This document shows, piece by piece, positions 44,396 through 48,707 of a DNA stretch of 64,000 bases. Source of the stretch: Thermodesulfobacteriota bacterium (GTDB lineage Bacteria > Desulfobacterota > Desulfarculia > JACQYL01). Numbering within the stretch: position 1 is the first letter of the stretch; each line of letters opens with the position of its first letter. The position numbers were made by a program, and so were the translations under genes. The stretch covers positions 1,312,001-1,376,000 of the forward strand of contig CAXXLZ010000002.1 in assembly GCA_963675595.2 (NCBI GenBank), given 5' to 3'. Under the pieces are notes generated by a model that worked only from the letters and a program-made list of their open reading frames with translations, ran no database searches and was not told the DNA's origin.

Positions 44396-45148
44396 TCATC
44401 CTTCGTATTCAGGTCCCAGTTCAAAAATCGTTTCCGGTGCCATCAAATTGAAAAACATGATCTTGCACGCCAAGTGAACTTCATCGAGCCGTCGCTCCAA
44501 ATCATCCCAAGACTCGTTTTCATCCAGCGTTTTGATGGTATCGATGTCCACAAGAACACCCTTAAGCCGTTTCTCGTATCCTGGAGCAACAGCCTCCGCG
44601 GGAGAAACGATTTGAACGATATGTGTCAGATCGCGTTCCTTGATTTCCGTACGAAACTGAACCGGCTTCGTGTCAATTTCGTGCCCCCCCAAGTACAAAT
44701 TAAGATTCAGACAGCCAAGGCCAAGAGGCCGGTCCAACTCAATCAGGTCGATGTACTTCAGCGAAAACCGTTCCAACGTCTTAATCAACCCGGTATCCCG
44801 AACAGTCTTTGCGAGATTGCGAATGTCGGCGGAAAACTTCTTCCAACCCGAATACGGTCGGCGACAGCTGAAGGAAACAACGCGTTCGCCGATCTGAATC
44901 GCTTGGTTCCCTTCTTCCAGGCGGATTTTCGGCATATATCGCAGATTTCGGTCATGTTCGATCACCTGGATCGGAATATCCGCAGTAGGCAATCGTACAA
45001 CATCGGCAGCATGTTTCCCCGGCAAAGCGTTGAAAAGCATCCCGGGCATCAAGTCCGCAACAGACGGCTTGTTTCCCGAAAAGCGAAGCTCCCATACGGC
45101 TTCAAGCAGCGGTTCCCTCTTGAGTCTAACTGGGATTCTCTTGTTCAT
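44396..45148 (-). CDS. TIGR04255 family protein
   Basis: LKREPLLEAVWELRF, RPYSGW, RFSLKYID and LVDID...F pattern. Confidence 0.8.
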   Translation of the reverse strand: MNKRIPVRLKREPLLEAVWELRFSGNKPSVADLMPGMLFNALPGKHAADVVRLPTADIPIQVIEHDRNLRYMPKIRLEEGNQAIQIGERVVSFSCRRPYSGWKKFSADIRNLAKTVRDTGLIKTLERFSLKYIDLIELDRPLGLGCLNLNLYLGGHEIDTKPVQFRTEIKERDLTHIVQIVSPAEAVAPGYEKRLKGVLVDIDTIKTLDENESWDDLERRLDEVHLACKIMFFNLMAPETIFELGPEYEG

Positions 45149-45399
45149 GCCCTTGTCCTTTGTCGGGACTCCGCTTTCTTCGGAAACCCGCCCTCTATTC
45201 TCAGGAAAGAGGACATCACGCTCACGGACAACTTCGAGTCCATGGTCGACCCACCGGACTTCCTCTCACAAAGCCATAGCATCCGGTCGCTTGACATTAT
45301 AGCAAAATAAATCGCAGGCATTCACGGTGGGGGGATTTTTTTATTTATTTATCGGGGGAAACTTTCGAGAAAGTTTCCTATGTGGCCTCAAGTCAAGCC

Positions 45400-45608
45400 G
45401 GAATTGGATAACCGTTTCCTATTCGCGCCCGAAGCGCCAAGTACACATGCGATGTAGAAGCGAAGATGCCGCCATTTCCCCAGCGCTACCGATGCAGCCA
45501 AACTTTATCGCGGCCGTCTCCGCTTTTTTCTCCCGGCTTGAGGCTCGGGACCCACCTCAAGTATGGGTCCCGAGCCGGTTGGGTTCTCCTAAACAAGTCC
45601 TAACCGGC
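45400..45608 (-). ncRNA. Putative bridge/seek RNA in the 3' non-coding end of the IS110 element
   Basis: Successive hairpins, then AGCC[GGGAGAAAAAA]GCGG-AGACGG-CCGC[GATAAAGTTT]GGCT (45538-45496), whose loop arms match the target. RNA boundaries are approximate. Confidence 0.7.
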
Positions 45609-46697
45609 TCATGCTTGGTCCGCTTGGAGACGAAATTCATAGGTCCGTTTTTCCATGGTCAATCGCCATAGAACAACGGCCAGTTTCCGTGCCAACGCAC
45701 AAATGGCCTTTTGTGGAAGGCCCGTTCGCGACAGGAGTTTTCGATAATGCGAATCAATGGCCGGATCCCTGGACTTCCACGTCCAGGCCGCCTCCACCAA
45801 CAGACTCCGCAGTCGCGTCTGACCCACGGGAGGAAGCGCCACTCGAGATTTCCGCTCTCCGCTTTGTCTTACCAACGGTGCGAGTCCCAGATAGCTGGTC
45901 ACTTCCTCCACCCGATGGAACCGACTCGGGCGAAACAATTCCAGGAGGAAGGTAGCCGCTGTGATGGGACCCACCCCGGGGACGCTTCGAAGGCATCGCA
46001 TTTCCTCAAAGTGTTCAGGTTTCTCGCACACACTGGAAGTCCTTTCCTCCATGAAGGCTTTTTCCTTTGTGAGGAAATTCAACTCACGGAGCAAGCTGAG
46101 CAGCGTCGCTTTGGCCTCCTTCGGCAGACGAAGCTTTCGAAGTTGCGCCACAGCGCTTCGGCCCCAATGATTGAGCCCGGGAGGCGCCTCCACACCGTGA
46201 AACAGCAGAAGGGATTGAATTCTCTGCTTAACGCGTCGAGTGCCGTCGGCCAGATCGTGCCGACGGCGAATTACGCTGCGTTCGGCCTCCTCTTCCTCCG
46301 TGGGAACGGCGATGGACTTCAATATCCCTCGGGCGGCATGGTCCGCCAACCGCATGCAATCCAGGCGGTCGGTCTTGGCCCCCGCAGTCACCGGCCTAGG
46401 GACCCGACTCGGCGCCACCACGATCACGCTGAACCCGGCTTTGGCCAAAGTGCGCGCAAGGCCGAAGCCGGTGGGCCCCGCTTCGTAGGCTACGGCTCGG
46501 ATGCGCCTCAAGTGGGGGAGCAACATGGCCACGATGGCCTCCGGAGAGGCCGAGGACACAAAAGTCTTCACCTCGCCGTCGCTGCGAAGCACGGCCACGT
46601 GGTAGCTCTTTTTGTGTACGTCGATCCCGACGTGGAAATCACGGTCGATATCCAGCTCCAAAAACTTGGCCAATTCTGTTACTTTCGTTGCTACCAT
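45609..46697 (-). CDS. IS110 family DEDD recombinase/transposase
   Basis: GIDVHK, YEAG, KTDRLD, SVPGVGPITA and YLGLAP..RQSG (catalytic Ser). AAGGAG RBS before ATG 46697. Confidence 0.95.
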   Translation of the reverse strand: MVATKVTELAKFLELDIDRDFHVGIDVHKKSYHVAVLRSDGEVKTFVSSASPEAIVAMLLPHLRRIRAVAYEAGPTGFGLARTLAKAGFSVIVVAPSRVPRPVTAGAKTDRLDCMRLADHAARGILKSIAVPTEEEEAERSVIRRRHDLADGTRRVKQRIQSLLLFHGVEAPPGLNHWGRSAVAQLRKLRLPKEAKATLLSLLRELNFLTKEKAFMEERTSSVCEKPEHFEEMRCLRSVPGVGPITAATFLLELFRPSRFHRVEEVTSYLGLAPLVRQSGERKSRVALPPVGQTRLRSLLVEAAWTWKSRDPAIDSHYRKLLSRTGLPQKAICALARKLAVVLWRLTMEKRTYEFRLQADQA

Positions 46698-46931
46698 GTT
46701 GGTCTCCTTTCTGTTTGGGTGATGCTCCATCATAACGATCGAGCACCTGAGGCCAACATGGTATTTCCCCCGGTCCCCTTTCAAAGCGTTTTGAGATTGC
46801 CTCACCGCCTTCGGCGGAGAGGCTGAGGGGGAAATAGGGTTGCTCGCTGATTTCCAGCGTCCTTTGATTTGCTGAATCGGCAAGAACGAGCAGCATGTCC
46901 GTCCAACCTATTAAAATACCTAACGTTTTTC

Positions 46932-46994
46932 GGAAGGAGCCCGAGGGAGCCCTTTTTTCAAAAAGGGTTCCCTCGGATACCCCTCTGAATGCTC
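46932..46994 (+). repeat. Palindromic repeat family C
   Basis: GAAGGAGCCCGAGGGA(G/A)CCCTTTTTTTCAAAAAGGGTTCCCTCGGATACCCCCTCTGAATGCTC, nearly identical at 52669-52731, with a variant at 29861-29906. Confidence 0.8.
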
Positions 46995-47223
46995 ACAATA
47001 AATCTTCCCCGCAGTGGTGAAAAGGGCCGGGGTTGATTTTGTGCTTCTATCCTTCAGCGGACAAACCACGATCCGAAGCAATCCGTCCGCCCCTGCCGCC
47101 GGCCCGGCTGTTTCCCGGGAATGACCATTGCCTCCCCATCCGGGTCGAACCATTGCGCAACGTGTTTGGCCAACCGGTCCAACCGGAATGTGTCAATGAA
47201 AATGAGACACCTGTTTTCAGAAA

Positions 47224-48219
47224 TTAGACTCTCACGTCATCGCTCGACGGTTTGTTGATCCACGCGGCCTTGGGCAATTTTGGCGGCTGTGGCACCTTTC
47301 CTTTGAAACGGTTGGGGTTGCTCCGGAAGGCAGCCCGAAGAACTTGGCTGCGACACGCTACAATGTCCTGGGCGAGTCCGTAATGGAGCTGTTCGGGTGT
47401 GACCAACCCGATGCCTGAATGCCGATGCTCGGGGTTGTACCAGGAGAAGAACTCCCGGCAGAAAGACCGGGCATCCTGGATTGATCCAAACCGTTTCGGG
47501 AATTTCGGGCAATACTTGAGGGTTTTAAACTGCGCCTCCGAGTAGGGGTTATCATTGCTGACATAGGGTCGGCTGTGGGTCTTGGTCACTCCAAGGTCTC
47601 CCATGAACTCGGCTACGGACTTCGCTTTCATCGCCGGGCCTCGATCCGCATGGATGATGAGTTGGCCGGACTTGATATCCTGCTTGAAGCACGTCTCTTC
47701 GATGAGTTGCCTGGCCAAAGCGGCGCTTTCCCGATGGGCCACCATCCAGCCGACCACGTAGCGGCTGAAGATGTCCATGATCACGTAAAGATGGAAATAG
47801 GTCCACTTCACAGGCCCTTTTAGCTTCGTAATATCCCAGGACCACACTTTGTTGGGTCCGGTCGCAAGCAACTCGGGCTTTTTATAGACAGGCCGCCGCG
47901 CCTGCTTTCTTCGCTCTTTGACATCACCGGATTCCGCTTTGAGAATCCGGTACATGGTCCGGATAGAGCAGTAGTACTGTCCTTCATCGAGCAAGACGGC
48001 AAAGACCTGACGGGGAGCATCATCCTGAAAACGGGAGCTGTTAAGCAGATCGACCACGGTTTCCCGCTCCTGGGGGTTCAGAGCCAAGGGAGGCGCCGGC
48101 CGAGGTGTGCGGGCCGCCGCCGGCTTCAGGCGGCGATAGAAACTCGCACGGGGCAGGCCCATGGCTCCACATGCCTGCACGGTTCCCACCTCGGTGCGCA
48201 GCTCCATCGCCGCGCTCAT
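47224..48219 (-). CDS. IS3 transposase OrfB (rve integrase core)
   Basis: PNKVWSWDIT, DIFSRYVVGW, HADRG, DNPYSEAQFKTLK and YNPEHRHSGI motifs. Confidence 0.93.
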   Translation of the reverse strand: MSAAMELRTEVGTVQACGAMGLPRASFYRRLKPAAARTPRPAPPLALNPQERETVVDLLNSSRFQDDAPRQVFAVLLDEGQYYCSIRTMYRILKAESGDVKERRKQARRPVYKKPELLATGPNKVWSWDITKLKGPVKWTYFHLYVIMDIFSRYVVGWMVAHRESAALARQLIEETCFKQDIKSGQLIIHADRGPAMKAKSVAEFMGDLGVTKTHSRPYVSNDNPYSEAQFKTLKYCPKFPKRFGSIQDARSFCREFFSWYNPEHRHSGIGLVTPEQLHYGLAQDIVACRSQVLRAAFRSNPNRFKGKVPQPPKLPKAAWINKPSSDDVRV

Positions 48220-48707
48220 GAACTGCTCCCGTCGTCGTCCAGGTCCGGCTGAGCGATCCCCAGTATCTCCGAGATTTTTTTTTGAACTTCGATGATGGTT
48301 CGCGCCTGTTTCAGTTGATTCTCGAGACGGCGGTTCTCCCTTTCAAGCCGGGCCACCCGCTCTGCCATAGGGTTCTTCTGCTTGGGCTTCCGGCCTCGCT
48401 TCTTTGGCCCAAGCGCCCTCAACTGCCCCTGGTCACGTTGTCTACGCCATGTCGCCAGACTCGAAGAATACAGGCCTTCTCGCCGAAGTAGAGCCCCGAG
48501 CCGGCCCGGTTCAGTACACGCATCGGCTTCCTCCAGGATTCTCAGCTTGTACCGGGCTGTAAATCTGCGACGAGGCTTCTTCTCTGGAACCTCCGGGTCG
48601 GGGACCGTGACGTGCTTCCCGATCGTGGTAACTCCGGTCGTCCTACGGACTCCCTCCGTTACCACGATTCCCTCATCCGGATTCTCTTTCTCTCTGTGCC
48701 TCATCAT
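48216..48707 (-). CDS. IS3 transposase OrfA (HTH)
   Basis: RRRFTARYKLRIL...LLRREGLYSS and a leucine zipper. A9 slippery run near 48275-48283. Confidence 0.9.
   Translation of the reverse strand: MMRHREKENPDEGIVVTEGVRRTTGVTTIGKHVTVPDPEVPEKKPRRRFTARYKLRILEEADACTEPGRLGALLRREGLYSSSLATWRRQRDQGQLRALGPKKRGRKPKQKNPMAERVARLERENRRLENQLKQARTIIEVQKKISEILGIAQPDLDDDGSSS

What the first reader, a model, noticed from the sequence alone, without database searches (positions are those of the whole stretch)
45353..46830. IS110/IS1111 bridge recombinase whose non-coding end encodes guides matching the host's palindromic repeat
Seen: (1) the element splits a family B repeat, and excision at the shared core restores a perfect hairpin that reads CCGGGGGAAA|CTTTCTCGAAAG on the minus strand. 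(2) About 230 nt downstream of the recombinase fold into hairpins, including AGCC[GGGAGAAAAAA]GCGG-loop-CCGC[GATAAAGTTT]GGCT. The left arm GGGAGAAA (45534-45527) matches the left target GGGGGAAA at 7/8. The right arm AAAGTTT (45506-45500) is the exact reverse complement of the right target AAACTTT. (3) A second internal loop (~45486-45433) has GGAAA and CATGTGTACTT, only partly matching the donor junction ATAGGAAATACCATG. Known: IS110 elements use bridge/seek RNAs with target and donor loops, located 3' of the gene in IS1111-type elements. Inference: an intact, compact (362 aa) programmable recombinase aimed at an abundant repeat as a safe harbour, with further potential targets in this window. 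The class is known; this member and its target may be new.
Basis: partly seen in the sequence, partly recalled or inferred. Interest (0 to 1): 0.85.

Follow-up and report, generated by a model that had tools for sequence, protein, structure and literature searches.

The report
IS1111-type bridge recombinase targeting a repeat hairpin

Summary
The element is real: 1390 bp on the minus strand (window 45374-46763). It has a 362-aa DEDD/Ser recombinase, subterminal inverted repeats and a 235-nt 3' non-coding end. The genome holds 8 full copies (6 identical). Seven of 8 left flanks read GGGGAAA and 7 of 8 right flanks read C(C)TTT. Six of 8 copies lie in palindromic repeat hairpins.

Stem P1 (45514-45510 with 45472-45468) encloses a top-strand guide AAAGUUU (45506-45500), hairpin P2, and a bottom-strand guide GGGGAAA (45481-45475). 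This is the order published for IS1111 seekRNAs.

In homologues of 51-58% identity both guide windows track each element's own flanks (0 of 20000 permutations each). P1, P2 and P4 show compensatory changes (9 of 14 pairs).

A match of that quality arises in 29% of shuffles. A natural variant changes the arm without changing the target.

AUAGGAAA (45422-45415) is the left-donor guide; the right-donor guide is unresolved. No RNA data exist. REP targeting by this class is already known (IS621, ISPa11, ISPpu9).

The parts
45374..46763 (-). Whole insertion sequence, 1390 bp, counting the shared AAA once at the right end
   Evidence: 8 full-length copies in the genome share exactly these ends. The copy at C2:3245342 carries A instead of G at position -4 of its left junction only, so the shared core is at most AAA.
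46764..46772 (-). Left half of the split target hairpin (CGGGGGAAA); GGGGAAA is the left target plus core
   Evidence: 7 of 8 copies have GGGGAAA here and 1 of 8 has GGGAAAA.
45353..45373 (-). Right half of the split hairpin (CTTTCTCGAAAGTTTCCCCCG). On the + strand it still carries an intact second target, GGGGAAACTTT, at 45355-45365.
46698..46763 (-). Left end, 66 nt. It holds TACCAT (46763-46758, the candidate -10 of a junction promoter), the left subterminal repeat ATGTTGGCCTCA (46759-46748), and an internal promoter-like site TTGGCC-16-TATGAT (46756-46729).
   Evidence: Sequence reading; promoter scan.
45609..46697 (-). Recombinase gene, 362 aa, with D26, E72, D110, D113 and S279-G280 (motif GLAPLVRQSG)
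   Evidence: Pfam PF01548 and PF02371. NCBIfam NF033542 at 228.5 bits against a cut-off of 140. Alignment to IS621 (8wt6) and ISCro4 (9t56) covers the DEDD and SG motifs. The protein is identical in all 8 copies.
45542..45576 (-). Strong hairpin P0 just after the stop codon, function unknown; its loop holds ACTTGAGG, also found in the right subterminal repeat
   Evidence: Conserved in the 82% partial copy.
45524..45534 (-).
   Evidence: No match to own flanks above others' in homologues. Chance level 29%. Changed at 3 positions in a variant copy that keeps the same target.
45510..45514 (-). Stem P1, 5' strand (GCCGC)
   Evidence: RNAalifold and pair counts on 9 homologues; compensatory pairs GCCAC/GUGGC and GACGC/GCGUC.
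45499..45509 (-). Top-strand (right) target guide window GAUAAAGUUUG; AAAGUUU (45506-45500) pairs with the top strand AAACTTT
45485..45498 (-). Hairpin P2 (GCUGC-AUCG-GUAGC) between the two target guides
   Evidence: 4 of 5 pairs show compensatory changes.
45473..45484 (-). Bottom-strand (left) target guide window GCUGGGGAAAUG; GGGGAAA (45481-45475) equals the left target plus core
45468..45472 (-). Stem P1, 3' strand (GCGGC)
45439..45455 (-). Hairpin P3 (ACAU-CGC-AUGU, 45455-45445) followed by GUACUU (45444-39). GGUAC is conserved in homologues. It is a candidate right donor guide, unresolved.
   Evidence: WIN ACAU/AUGU against the partial copy's GCAU/AUGC is compensatory (read). Pairing to the donor left end is imperfect.
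45425..45437 (-). Hairpin P4 (GCGC-UUCGG-GCGC)
   Evidence: 3 of 4 pairs compensatory.
45415..45422 (-). Left donor guide AUAGGAAA, identical to the last 8 nt of the element (ATAGGAAA, 45381-45374)
   Evidence: This segment changes together with the right end in distant homologues (AUAAGAUA, AUAAGAAAA, AUAACAGA). An exact match occurs in 0.4% of shuffles.
45374..45396 (-). Right end: TTGACT (45396-45391, candidate -35 of a junction promoter, 17 nt from TACCAT once the ends are joined), right subterminal repeat TGAGGCCACAT (45390-45380), terminal AGGAAA
   Evidence: Sequence reading. TTGAC is conserved at this place in homologues.

Best explanation
An active IS1111-type member of the IS110 family. 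Its DEDD/Ser recombinase is guided by an RNA made from the 235-nt 3' non-coding end.

In that RNA, stem P1 encloses a three-way target-binding module. [quoted passage not shown] Hairpin P2 follows. [quoted passage not shown] Together they specify the 11-bp site GGGGAAA|CTTT, which lies in each arm of a host palindromic repeat.

Further 3', hairpins P3 and P4 flank donor-recognition segments. AUAGGAAA matches the element's right end.

Recombination at the shared AAA inserts the circular form without a target duplication. Joining the ends would create a TTGACT-17-TACCAT promoter.

Shown here: element anatomy, copy number, target consensus, conserved RNA helices, and covariation between guides and flanks. 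Inferred: that the RNA is made and bound, the circular intermediate, the promoter, and the chemistry (by homology to IS621 and ISEc11).
For: Family. Pfam PF01548+PF02371 and NCBIfam 'IS110 family RNA-guided transposase' at 228.5 bits. The DEDD and SG motifs align to IS621.

Activity. There are 8 full copies: 6 identical, 1 with a single flank-side difference, and 1 variant whose 8 coding changes are all synonymous.

Target. GGGGAAA is on the left in 7 of 8 copies. On the right, CTTT occurs in 5 of 8 and CCTTT in 2 of 8.

Structure. RNAalifold on 9 homologous cores finds P1, P2 and P4 on its own. 91.1% of cells are paired, 9 of 14 pairs have compensatory changes, and 0 of 500 shuffles reach this. 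Slid controls give 17-51% paired. Single-sequence MFE folds of WIN, L031, L049 and L050 recover the same module.

Guides. The summed longest exact match between each element's own flank and its guide window was compared with permuted flanks.
- Bottom-strand window: 90 against 55.7 permuted (n=12).
- Top-strand window: 86 against 45.4 permuted (n=12).
- 0 of 20000 permutations reach the observed value for either window. The same holds with one representative per lineage (n=8 and n=10).

Examples:
- L060: top-strand guide 11/11, bottom-strand guide 8/8.
- L064 and L065 differ at one guide base and at the matching flank base.
- The 82% partial copy in the same genome has the top-strand guide CUAAAGUUU beside the flank AAACTTTAG (9/9).

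The guide order, top-strand match 5' of bottom-strand match, is the one reported for IS1111 seekRNAs (PMC11187229 sections 9 and 12; PMC13604230 Table 1).

Exact GGGGAAA, AAAGTTT and ATAGGAAA occur together in 0 of 2000 shuffles.
Against: No RNA evidence: no RNA run holds the element (a blank that says nothing either way).

The 105-nt core alone is not unusually stable (z +1.56; 190 of 200 shuffles fold as well), so support for the structure rests on covariation.

In 3 of 12 elements (L048, L049, L050) the top-strand guide matches only with mismatches (exact runs of 4-5 nt). L051 (single copy, uncertain ends) fits neither guide.

The right donor guide could not be assigned.

The guide windows and element ends of the homologues were set by me from short anchors, not blind.

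The recombinase (362 aa) is longer than the 330-350 aa quoted for IS1111 transposases (PMC11187229 section 6).

Two of 8 insertions are at imperfect sites (AAA|AACT, GGGAAAA|CCTTTT). Either mismatches are tolerated or the recognition rule is incomplete.
Confidence: 0.85

Rival explanations
1. One reading: an IS621-style internal loop in which GGGAGAAA (45534-45527) is the left target guide and AAAGUUU (45506-45500) the right one, closed by AGCC/GGCU and GCGG/CCGC.
For: The strings exist, and the AGCC/GGCU and GCG/CGC pairings are also possible in the 82% partial copy. In IS621 the left guide is 5' of the right guide in one loop (PMC11208160).
Against: The 32 nt 5' of P1 match their own left flank no better than other elements' flanks (own matches 3-5 nt). 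A 7/8 match arises in 29% of shuffles. Its CCGC strand is the 5' strand of P1, which has compensatory support. The variant copy at C2:2980052-2981449 and the organism-B variant change this arm at 3 positions yet sit at GGGGAAA|CCTTT and GGGGAAA|CTTTC. IS1111 seekRNAs have the opposite guide order (PMC11187229).
Confidence: 0.04
2. Target choice is made by the protein, or by recognition of the DNA hairpin shape; the short matches in the non-coding end are incidental.
For: Six of 8 copies lie in hairpins. The matches are only 7-8 nt. There are no RNA data.
Against: Two of 8 copies and many homologues sit at non-hairpin sites that still match their own guide windows. Guide-flank covariation gives 0 of 20000 permutations. 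Experimental reprogramming has been done in relatives (PMC11187229 sections 10 and 12).
Confidence: 0.05
3. The copies are inactive relics, or spread by other means such as recombination between repeats.
For: No circle junction or empty-site evidence specific to this locus. The one contig joint 45373>46764 may simply be another copy of the repeat.
Against: Six copies are identical, all 8 have intact identical proteins, and 8 of 8 coding differences in the variant are synonymous. Copies lie in both orientations relative to the larger repeat and at unrelated loci. A near-identical variant is held in runs labelled as a second organism.
Confidence: 0.05

Closest known systems
ISPa11 (IS1111 family, Pseudomonas aeruginosa)
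   Same: Recombinase with a 3' non-coding end. A seekRNA co-purifies with the transposase. The target is a REP palindrome. The top-strand match lies 5' of the bottom-strand match (PMC11187229 sections 8-9; PMC13604230 Table 1).
   Different: Different target sequence and host. I held no ISPa11 sequence, so identity and RNA fold were not compared. Its folds are in figures and supplements that I could not see.
ISEc11 / ISKpn4 (IS1111 family)
   Same: Subterminal inverted repeats, a junction promoter formed on circle formation, an 82-nt short and a ~150-nt long seekRNA from the 3' end, and overlapping top- and bottom-strand matches (PMC11187229 sections 8-10).
   Different: Their targets are linear sites or attC sites. 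Their transposases are 339 aa against 362 aa here. All their evidence is experimental; the evidence here is computational.
IS621 (IS110 group, E. coli)
   Same: DEDD plus Ser recombinase (aligned, E 3.9e-10). Guides pair with both strands and overlap at a core. A donor guide equals the element end. The target is a REP sequence (title of Choi 2003, seen in a reference list).
   Different: Its bridge RNA lies in the 5' end, with two simple internal loops and the left guide 5' of the right guide. Its core is CT. Here the RNA lies in the 3' end, the target module is a three-way junction with the opposite order, and the core lies within AAA.
ISPpu9 / ISPpu10 (Pseudomonas putida)
   Same: IS110-family elements inserted in REP sequences; several circular forms; native or junction promoters (PMC12288879, abstract only).
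   Different: ISPpu9's downstream small RNA Ssr9 was reported as not required for transposition. No solo copies of the non-coding end were found here.

Membership tests
IS110 family (RNA-guided DEDD recombinases) | N-terminal RuvC-like DEDD domain plus C-terminal Tnp domain | tested here: met
   PF01548 (57.9 bits) and PF02371 (78.8 bits); NF033542 at 228.5 bits against a cut-off of 140.
IS110 family (RNA-guided DEDD recombinases) | Catalytic D, E, D, D and the Ser-Gly loop | tested here: met
   GIDVHK, YEAGPTG, KTDRLD and RQSGER align to the IS621 motifs that hold D11, E60, D102, D105 and S241. Query residues are D26, E72, D110, D113 and S279.
IS110 family (RNA-guided DEDD recombinases) | Site-specific insertion without target-site duplication | tested here: met
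   8 of 8 junctions share only AAA, and the restored hairpin is perfect.
IS1111 group | Subterminal inverted repeats of 7-17 bp, set a few bases in from the ends | tested here: met
   ATGTTGGCCTCA (46759-46748) against TGAGGCCACAT (45390-45380), 11 of 12 with one indel, read.
IS1111 group | Long non-coding region downstream of the recombinase gene | tested here: met
   235 nt at the 3' end against 66 nt at the 5' end.
IS1111 group | GL-P----S(T)G motif | tested here: met
   GLAPLVRQSG at residues 271-280; the motif is as given in PMC11187229 section 6.
IS1111 group | seekRNA with the top-strand match 5' of the bottom-strand match, overlapping at the insertion point | tested here: met
   AAAGUUU lies 5' of GGGGAAA and they overlap at AAA.
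IS1111 group | Transposase of about 330-350 aa that branches with IS1111 transposases | tested here: inconclusive
   362 aa. No ISfinder sequences were at hand, so no tree was built.
IS1111 group | Promoter formed at the circle junction | tested here: inconclusive
   TTGACT, 17 nt, TACCAT across RE|LE by sequence reading only. The circle was not observed.
Bridge/seek RNA systems | The RNA is transcribed, binds the recombinase and is needed for transposition | not testable with these tools
   No RNA run is listed.
Bridge/seek RNA systems | Donor-binding guides for both element ends | tested here: inconclusive
   The left donor guide AUAGGAAA is met and covaries in distant homologues. The right donor guide was not found; GUACUU pairs only imperfectly.

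The most novel reading that the evidence does not exclude
This clade may work by an IS1111-type mechanism that differs in detail from IS621.

(1) The target module is a three-way junction (P1 enclosing top-strand guide, P2, bottom-strand guide).

(2) The base after the left donor guide tends to match the first base of the right flank rather than of the donor. This holds in WIN, L048, L050, L036, L038 and L037. It fails in the 82% partial copy and in L049, L039, L062, L063 and L065. The base after the left target guide is nearly always U, matching the first base of the element. Together these would be handshake-like contacts made by the bottom-strand guides.

(3) The left terminal repeat pairs with the ribosome site and start codon. 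The recombinase would then be translated only from transcripts that begin inside the element, such as those from the junction promoter.

A palindromic target would also give two insertion sites per hairpin.
Probability: 0.2. Interest if true: 0.5.

Novelty: new member of a known kind. Interest (0 to 1): 0.3.

Why it matters
The element adds a well-defined natural IS1111-type recombinase, with an 11-bp target and a compact guide core of about 105 nt. It also provides a set of more than 10 naturally retargeted relatives that fix which RNA positions read which DNA positions. That helps in annotating such elements and in choosing candidates for bridge or seek recombinase engineering. It does not change the picture of the class: RNA guidance, a 3' location of the RNA in IS1111 elements and REP targeting are all published.

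Tried and rejected
Rfam scan of 45000-47200 at E up to 10: only weak microRNA-like chance hits on a neighbouring palindrome, and no bridge-RNA family.

RNA evidence: the look-up of sequencing runs listed no RNA holder, so expression could not be addressed.

Read laying on contigs of 4 runs. A joint 45373>46764 (skipping 1390 nt) was seen in one short contig of X1. I do not count it as excision, because uninterrupted copies of the repeat exist elsewhere in the genome. Other joints carry unrelated inserted letters and reflect other repeat copies.

Left flank of the 82% partial copy. The element is 5'-truncated, so its predicted left target (CCTGCAAA) could not be checked. A paralogue of its right flank at C2:589895 has ...CCTAAAAA|CTTTAGG, which fits only partly.

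Right donor guide. I looked for a complement of AAATACCATG. Only imperfect candidates turned up (CAUGUGUACUU here, CGGUACUU in relatives), and the GGUAC lies within hairpin P3 in most homologues, so this is left unresolved.

L051 fits neither guide window. It is single-copy and its ends are uncertain.

The thermodynamic test of the 105-nt core was negative.

I did not run the large protein searches, structure prediction or complex prediction, because they would not change the verdict.

Supplements of the papers were closed. The seekRNA folds (supplementary figures of PMC11187229) and the bridge-RNA predictions (Supplementary Table 5 of PMC11208160) could bear on how new the three-way-junction description is.

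Papers, and what I saw of each:
- PMC11187229: outline and sections 6, 8, 9, 10, 12, 13.
- PMC11208160: section 12 and passages.
- PMC11208158: passages.
- PMC13626964: abstract, outline and reference passages.
- PMC13604230: passages including Table 1.
- PMC12288879: abstract and outline only.
- Tobes & Pareja 2006 and Choi 2003: seen only as reference-list entries.
Full report
What is there

On the minus strand of the window lies a 1390-bp element (45374-46763). Its left junction reads GGGGAAA|TACCATG and its right junction CACATAGGAAA|CTTT. It holds one gene (46697-45609, 362 aa) with the two Pfam domains of IS110-family transposases. It also hits the NCBIfam model 'IS110 family RNA-guided transposase' at 228.5 bits against a cut-off of 140.

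The protein aligns to the solved IS621 and ISCro4 recombinases (E 4e-10 and 5e-11). The DEDD motifs and the Ser-Gly loop are in place: D26, E72, D110, D113 and S279. The IS621 residues are named in PMC11208158.

The left non-coding end is 66 nt and the right one 235 nt. Subterminal inverted repeats (ATGTTGGCCTCA and TGAGGCCACAT) sit 4 and 6 nt in from the ends. The motif GLAPLVRQSG fits the IS1111 pattern GL-P----S(t)G given in PMC11187229 section 6. All of this is IS1111-type anatomy.

Copies and target

The window's genome (3 contigs, 6.79 Mb) has 8 full-length copies. Six are identical. One differs only at position -4 of its left junction. One is a 99.2% variant. There is also one 5'-truncated relative of 82% identity (C1:339446-339997).

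- Left flanks: GGGGAAA in 7 of 8 copies, GGGAAAA in 1 of 8.
- Right flanks: CTTT in 5 of 8, CCTTT in 2 of 8, AACT in 1 of 8.
- Five of 8 copies split a hairpin of the type GGGGGAAACTTTC-NN-GAAAGTTTCCCCC, in both orientations relative to the larger repeat.
- One copy splits a related hairpin.
- Two copies are not in hairpins. One of those sits in an open frame of at least 352 codons (I did not verify it as a gene).

The copy with A at -4 on the left but G at -4 on the right shows that the shared core is no longer than AAA.

The 'family B' repeat is composite. A hairpin CCTCTCCGCCGAAGGCGGTGAGG occurs about 114-128 times. Only about 16-25 of these copies continue into the target hairpin.

Exact GGGGAAACTTT occurs 19 times on both strands, against 2.6 expected from base composition. 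Three of the 19 are the untouched second arms of occupied hairpins. Because the target is palindromic, an occupied hairpin keeps a second site on the other strand; here that is 45355-45365.

The RNA

The whole 3' end folds better than shuffles (z -4.41), but single-sequence folds cannot place the guides. I therefore collected relatives:
- 15 loci from genome contigs;
- 5 genomes from the same class;
- 80 loci from metagenome contigs.

The best identity is 58%, so the element has no close relative in these collections. Near-identical copies occur in public runs under two organism labels.

The cores of 9 relatives align, and RNAalifold finds three helices on its own:
- P1: window 45514-45510 with 45472-45468.
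- P2: 45498-45494 with 45489-45485.
- P4: 45437-45434 with 45428-45425.

On this alignment 91.1% of cells are paired and 9 of 14 pairs carry compensatory changes. No shuffle of 500 reaches that, and partners slid by 1-3 columns give 17-51% paired. The centroid fold of the 105-nt core and the MFE folds of WIN, L031, L049 and L050 recover the same module. The core alone is not unusually stable (z +1.56), as one would expect of an RNA with large open guide loops. The structure therefore rests on covariation.

Guides

Inside P1 there are two open windows, separated by hairpin P2.

The 5' window (GAUAAAGUUUG, 45509-45499) holds AAAGUUU, the exact complement of the top strand AAACTTT. The 3' window (GCUGGGGAAAUG, 45484-45473) holds GGGGAAA, identical to the left target plus core, so it pairs with the bottom strand.

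In relatives the same windows read the relatives' own flanks:

| Element | Top-strand guide against own flank | Bottom-strand guide against own flank |
|---|---|---|
| L060 | 11/11 (GUUCUAAUUUU / AAAATTAGAAC) | 8/8 |
| L035 | 9/9 | - |
| L062 | 9 | - |
| L063 | 8 | - |
| L066 | 7 | - |
| L048, L049, L050 | exact runs of only 4-5 nt | 9/9 each |
| L065 | - | 10/10 |
| L064 | - | 8/8 |

L064 and L065 differ at one guide base and at the matching flank base. The truncated relative in this same genome has the top-strand guide CUAAAGUUU next to the flank AAACTTTAG (9/9).

Summed over 12 elements, own-flank matches are 90 (bottom-strand window) and 86 (top-strand window), against 55.7 and 45.4 for permuted flanks. 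No permutation of 20000 reaches the observed value. The result is the same with one representative per lineage.

Misses. L048, L049 and L050 match their right flanks only with mismatches. L051 fits neither window. I set the windows and ends myself from anchors, not blind.

The order, top-strand match 5' of bottom-strand match with overlap at the insertion point, is what Siddiquee et al. report for IS1111 seekRNAs. It is the reverse of IS110-type RNAs (PMC11187229 sections 9 and 12; PMC13604230 Table 1).

GGGAGAAA (45534-45527) fails four tests.
- Chance: a match of that quality appears in 29% of 2000 shuffles.
- Conservation: the 32 nt 5' of P1 show no preference for their own left flank in any relative.
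- Natural variation: the variant copy at C2:2980052-2981449, and the same variant in runs of a second organism label, change this arm at three positions (GGGAGAAAAAA becomes GGGGAGACAACA). Both still sit at GGGGAAA|CCTTT and GGGGAAA|CTTTC, with both guide windows unchanged.

Donor side

After P4 comes AUAGGAAA (45422-45415), identical to the last 8 nt of the element. This is the position and sense expected of a left donor guide. In more distant relatives the segment changes together with the right end (AUAAGAUA/ATAAGATA, AUAAGAAAA/ATAAGAAAA, AUAACAGA/ATAACAGA).

I could not assign a right donor guide. The conserved GGUAC(UU) pairs only imperfectly with AAATACC. Durrant et al. note that IS1111 donor-binding nucleotides often sit in multi-loops (PMC11208160 section 12).

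Expression (inferred)

Joining the ends places TTGACT (45396-45391) 17 nt from TACCAT (46763-46758). This is a junction promoter like the one described for ISEc11 (PMC11187229 section 8). An internal promoter-like site, TTGGCC-16-TATGAT, lies in the left end.

No promoter or terminator was found inside the 3' end. The RNA would therefore be made by read-through from the recombinase gene and then trimmed, as proposed for ISEc11.

Verdict

The finding is real and the class assignment is right.

RNA guidance, the 3' location of the RNA and REP targeting are all published for this class (IS621, ISPa11, ISPpu9). This is a new member of a known kind. It is useful mainly as a clean natural example with many retargeted relatives.

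Noticed in passing
window 46763-46753 with 46703-46693 (minus strand): The first 11 nt of the element (UACCAUGUUGG) are the exact complement of CCAACAUGGUA, which holds the start codon. An RNA reading in from outside folds so that the ribosome site and AUG are paired (z -2.94). An RNA starting at 46751 leaves them free. By eye the pairing is kept with changed letters in relatives (for example L036 TAGGTCATCC with GGATGACCTA, L038 TAGGCCATCC with GGATGGCC). I did not search the literature for this.
   Followed up: partly
G000 C2:2980052-2981449 (locus L056/L008); window positions 45854-45912 and 45525-45534 by homology: One of the 8 copies is a second subtype. It has 8 substitutions within 60 nt, all synonymous, over the codons of the catalytic Ser loop (GLAPLVRQSGER), plus 3 changes in the non-coding arm 45534-45524. 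Nearly the same variant is the form held in runs labelled as a second organism (one search lists 7 of its 8 coding changes plus one at 46059 that this copy lacks).
   Followed up: partly
G000 C1:339446-339997 (loci L009, L059): A 5'-truncated 82% relative in the same genome, with both target guide windows changed (CUAAAGUUU and CCUGCAAA). Its right flank matches the new top-strand guide 9/9. This looks like natural retargeting within one genome. The left flank is lost.
   Followed up: partly
L047, L048, L050 (relatives of 54-56% identity): These relatives sit in an A6-7G run with flanks reading ...ILKKA.... In L050 an rve/HTH_21/rve_2 gene (the IS3-type orfB architecture, a label I recall) starts 31 nt downstream. 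They appear to target the frameshift window of IS3-family elements. Their bottom-strand guides read UAAAAAAAG and UUAAAAAAG.
   Followed up: partly
L031-L034, L041, L043, L044 and L060: Relatives in a Desulfovibrionaceae MAG (7 copies) and in one metagenome contig insert a few bases downstream of REP-like hairpins (GGGGGAAAACTTTTTGAAAAAAGTTTTCCCCC and the like) that closely resemble this genome's target hairpin. Their site is YCCAAAA|CTTT, beside the hairpin rather than inside it.
   Followed up: partly
window 45414 and 45474; homologues: The base after the left donor guide equals the first base of the right flank in WIN (C), L048 and L050 (G), L036 (CC), L038 (G) and L037 (A). It does not in the 82% partial copy, L049, L039, L062, L063 and L065. 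Cases with A-runs are ambiguous. The base after the left target guide is U in most elements, like the first base of the element. The sample is small and I made no formal test.
   Followed up: partly
G000 C1:345115-345185 and C2:3700214-3700274: Two more family-B repeats end at ...GGGGACCGGGGGAAA| and continue with unrelated sequence (TTTCAGTTGTGAGCC..., TCAGCGAAGCC...). Something else may break or insert at the same point of the hairpin.
   Followed up: no
window 47224-48707 (minus strand): An IS3-like pair of genes (163 aa with no Pfam hit, and 331 aa with rve plus rve_3) lies 460 nt from the element. Between them is another palindrome (46935-46980), which gave the only weak Rfam hits.
   Followed up: partly
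G000 C2:2980052-2981449 flanks: With the element removed, an open frame of at least 352 codons spans the site. It ends in a hydrophobic tail followed by RRREEC, which looks like a C-terminal sorting signal (my reading, not tested). This copy probably interrupts a gene.
   Followed up: no
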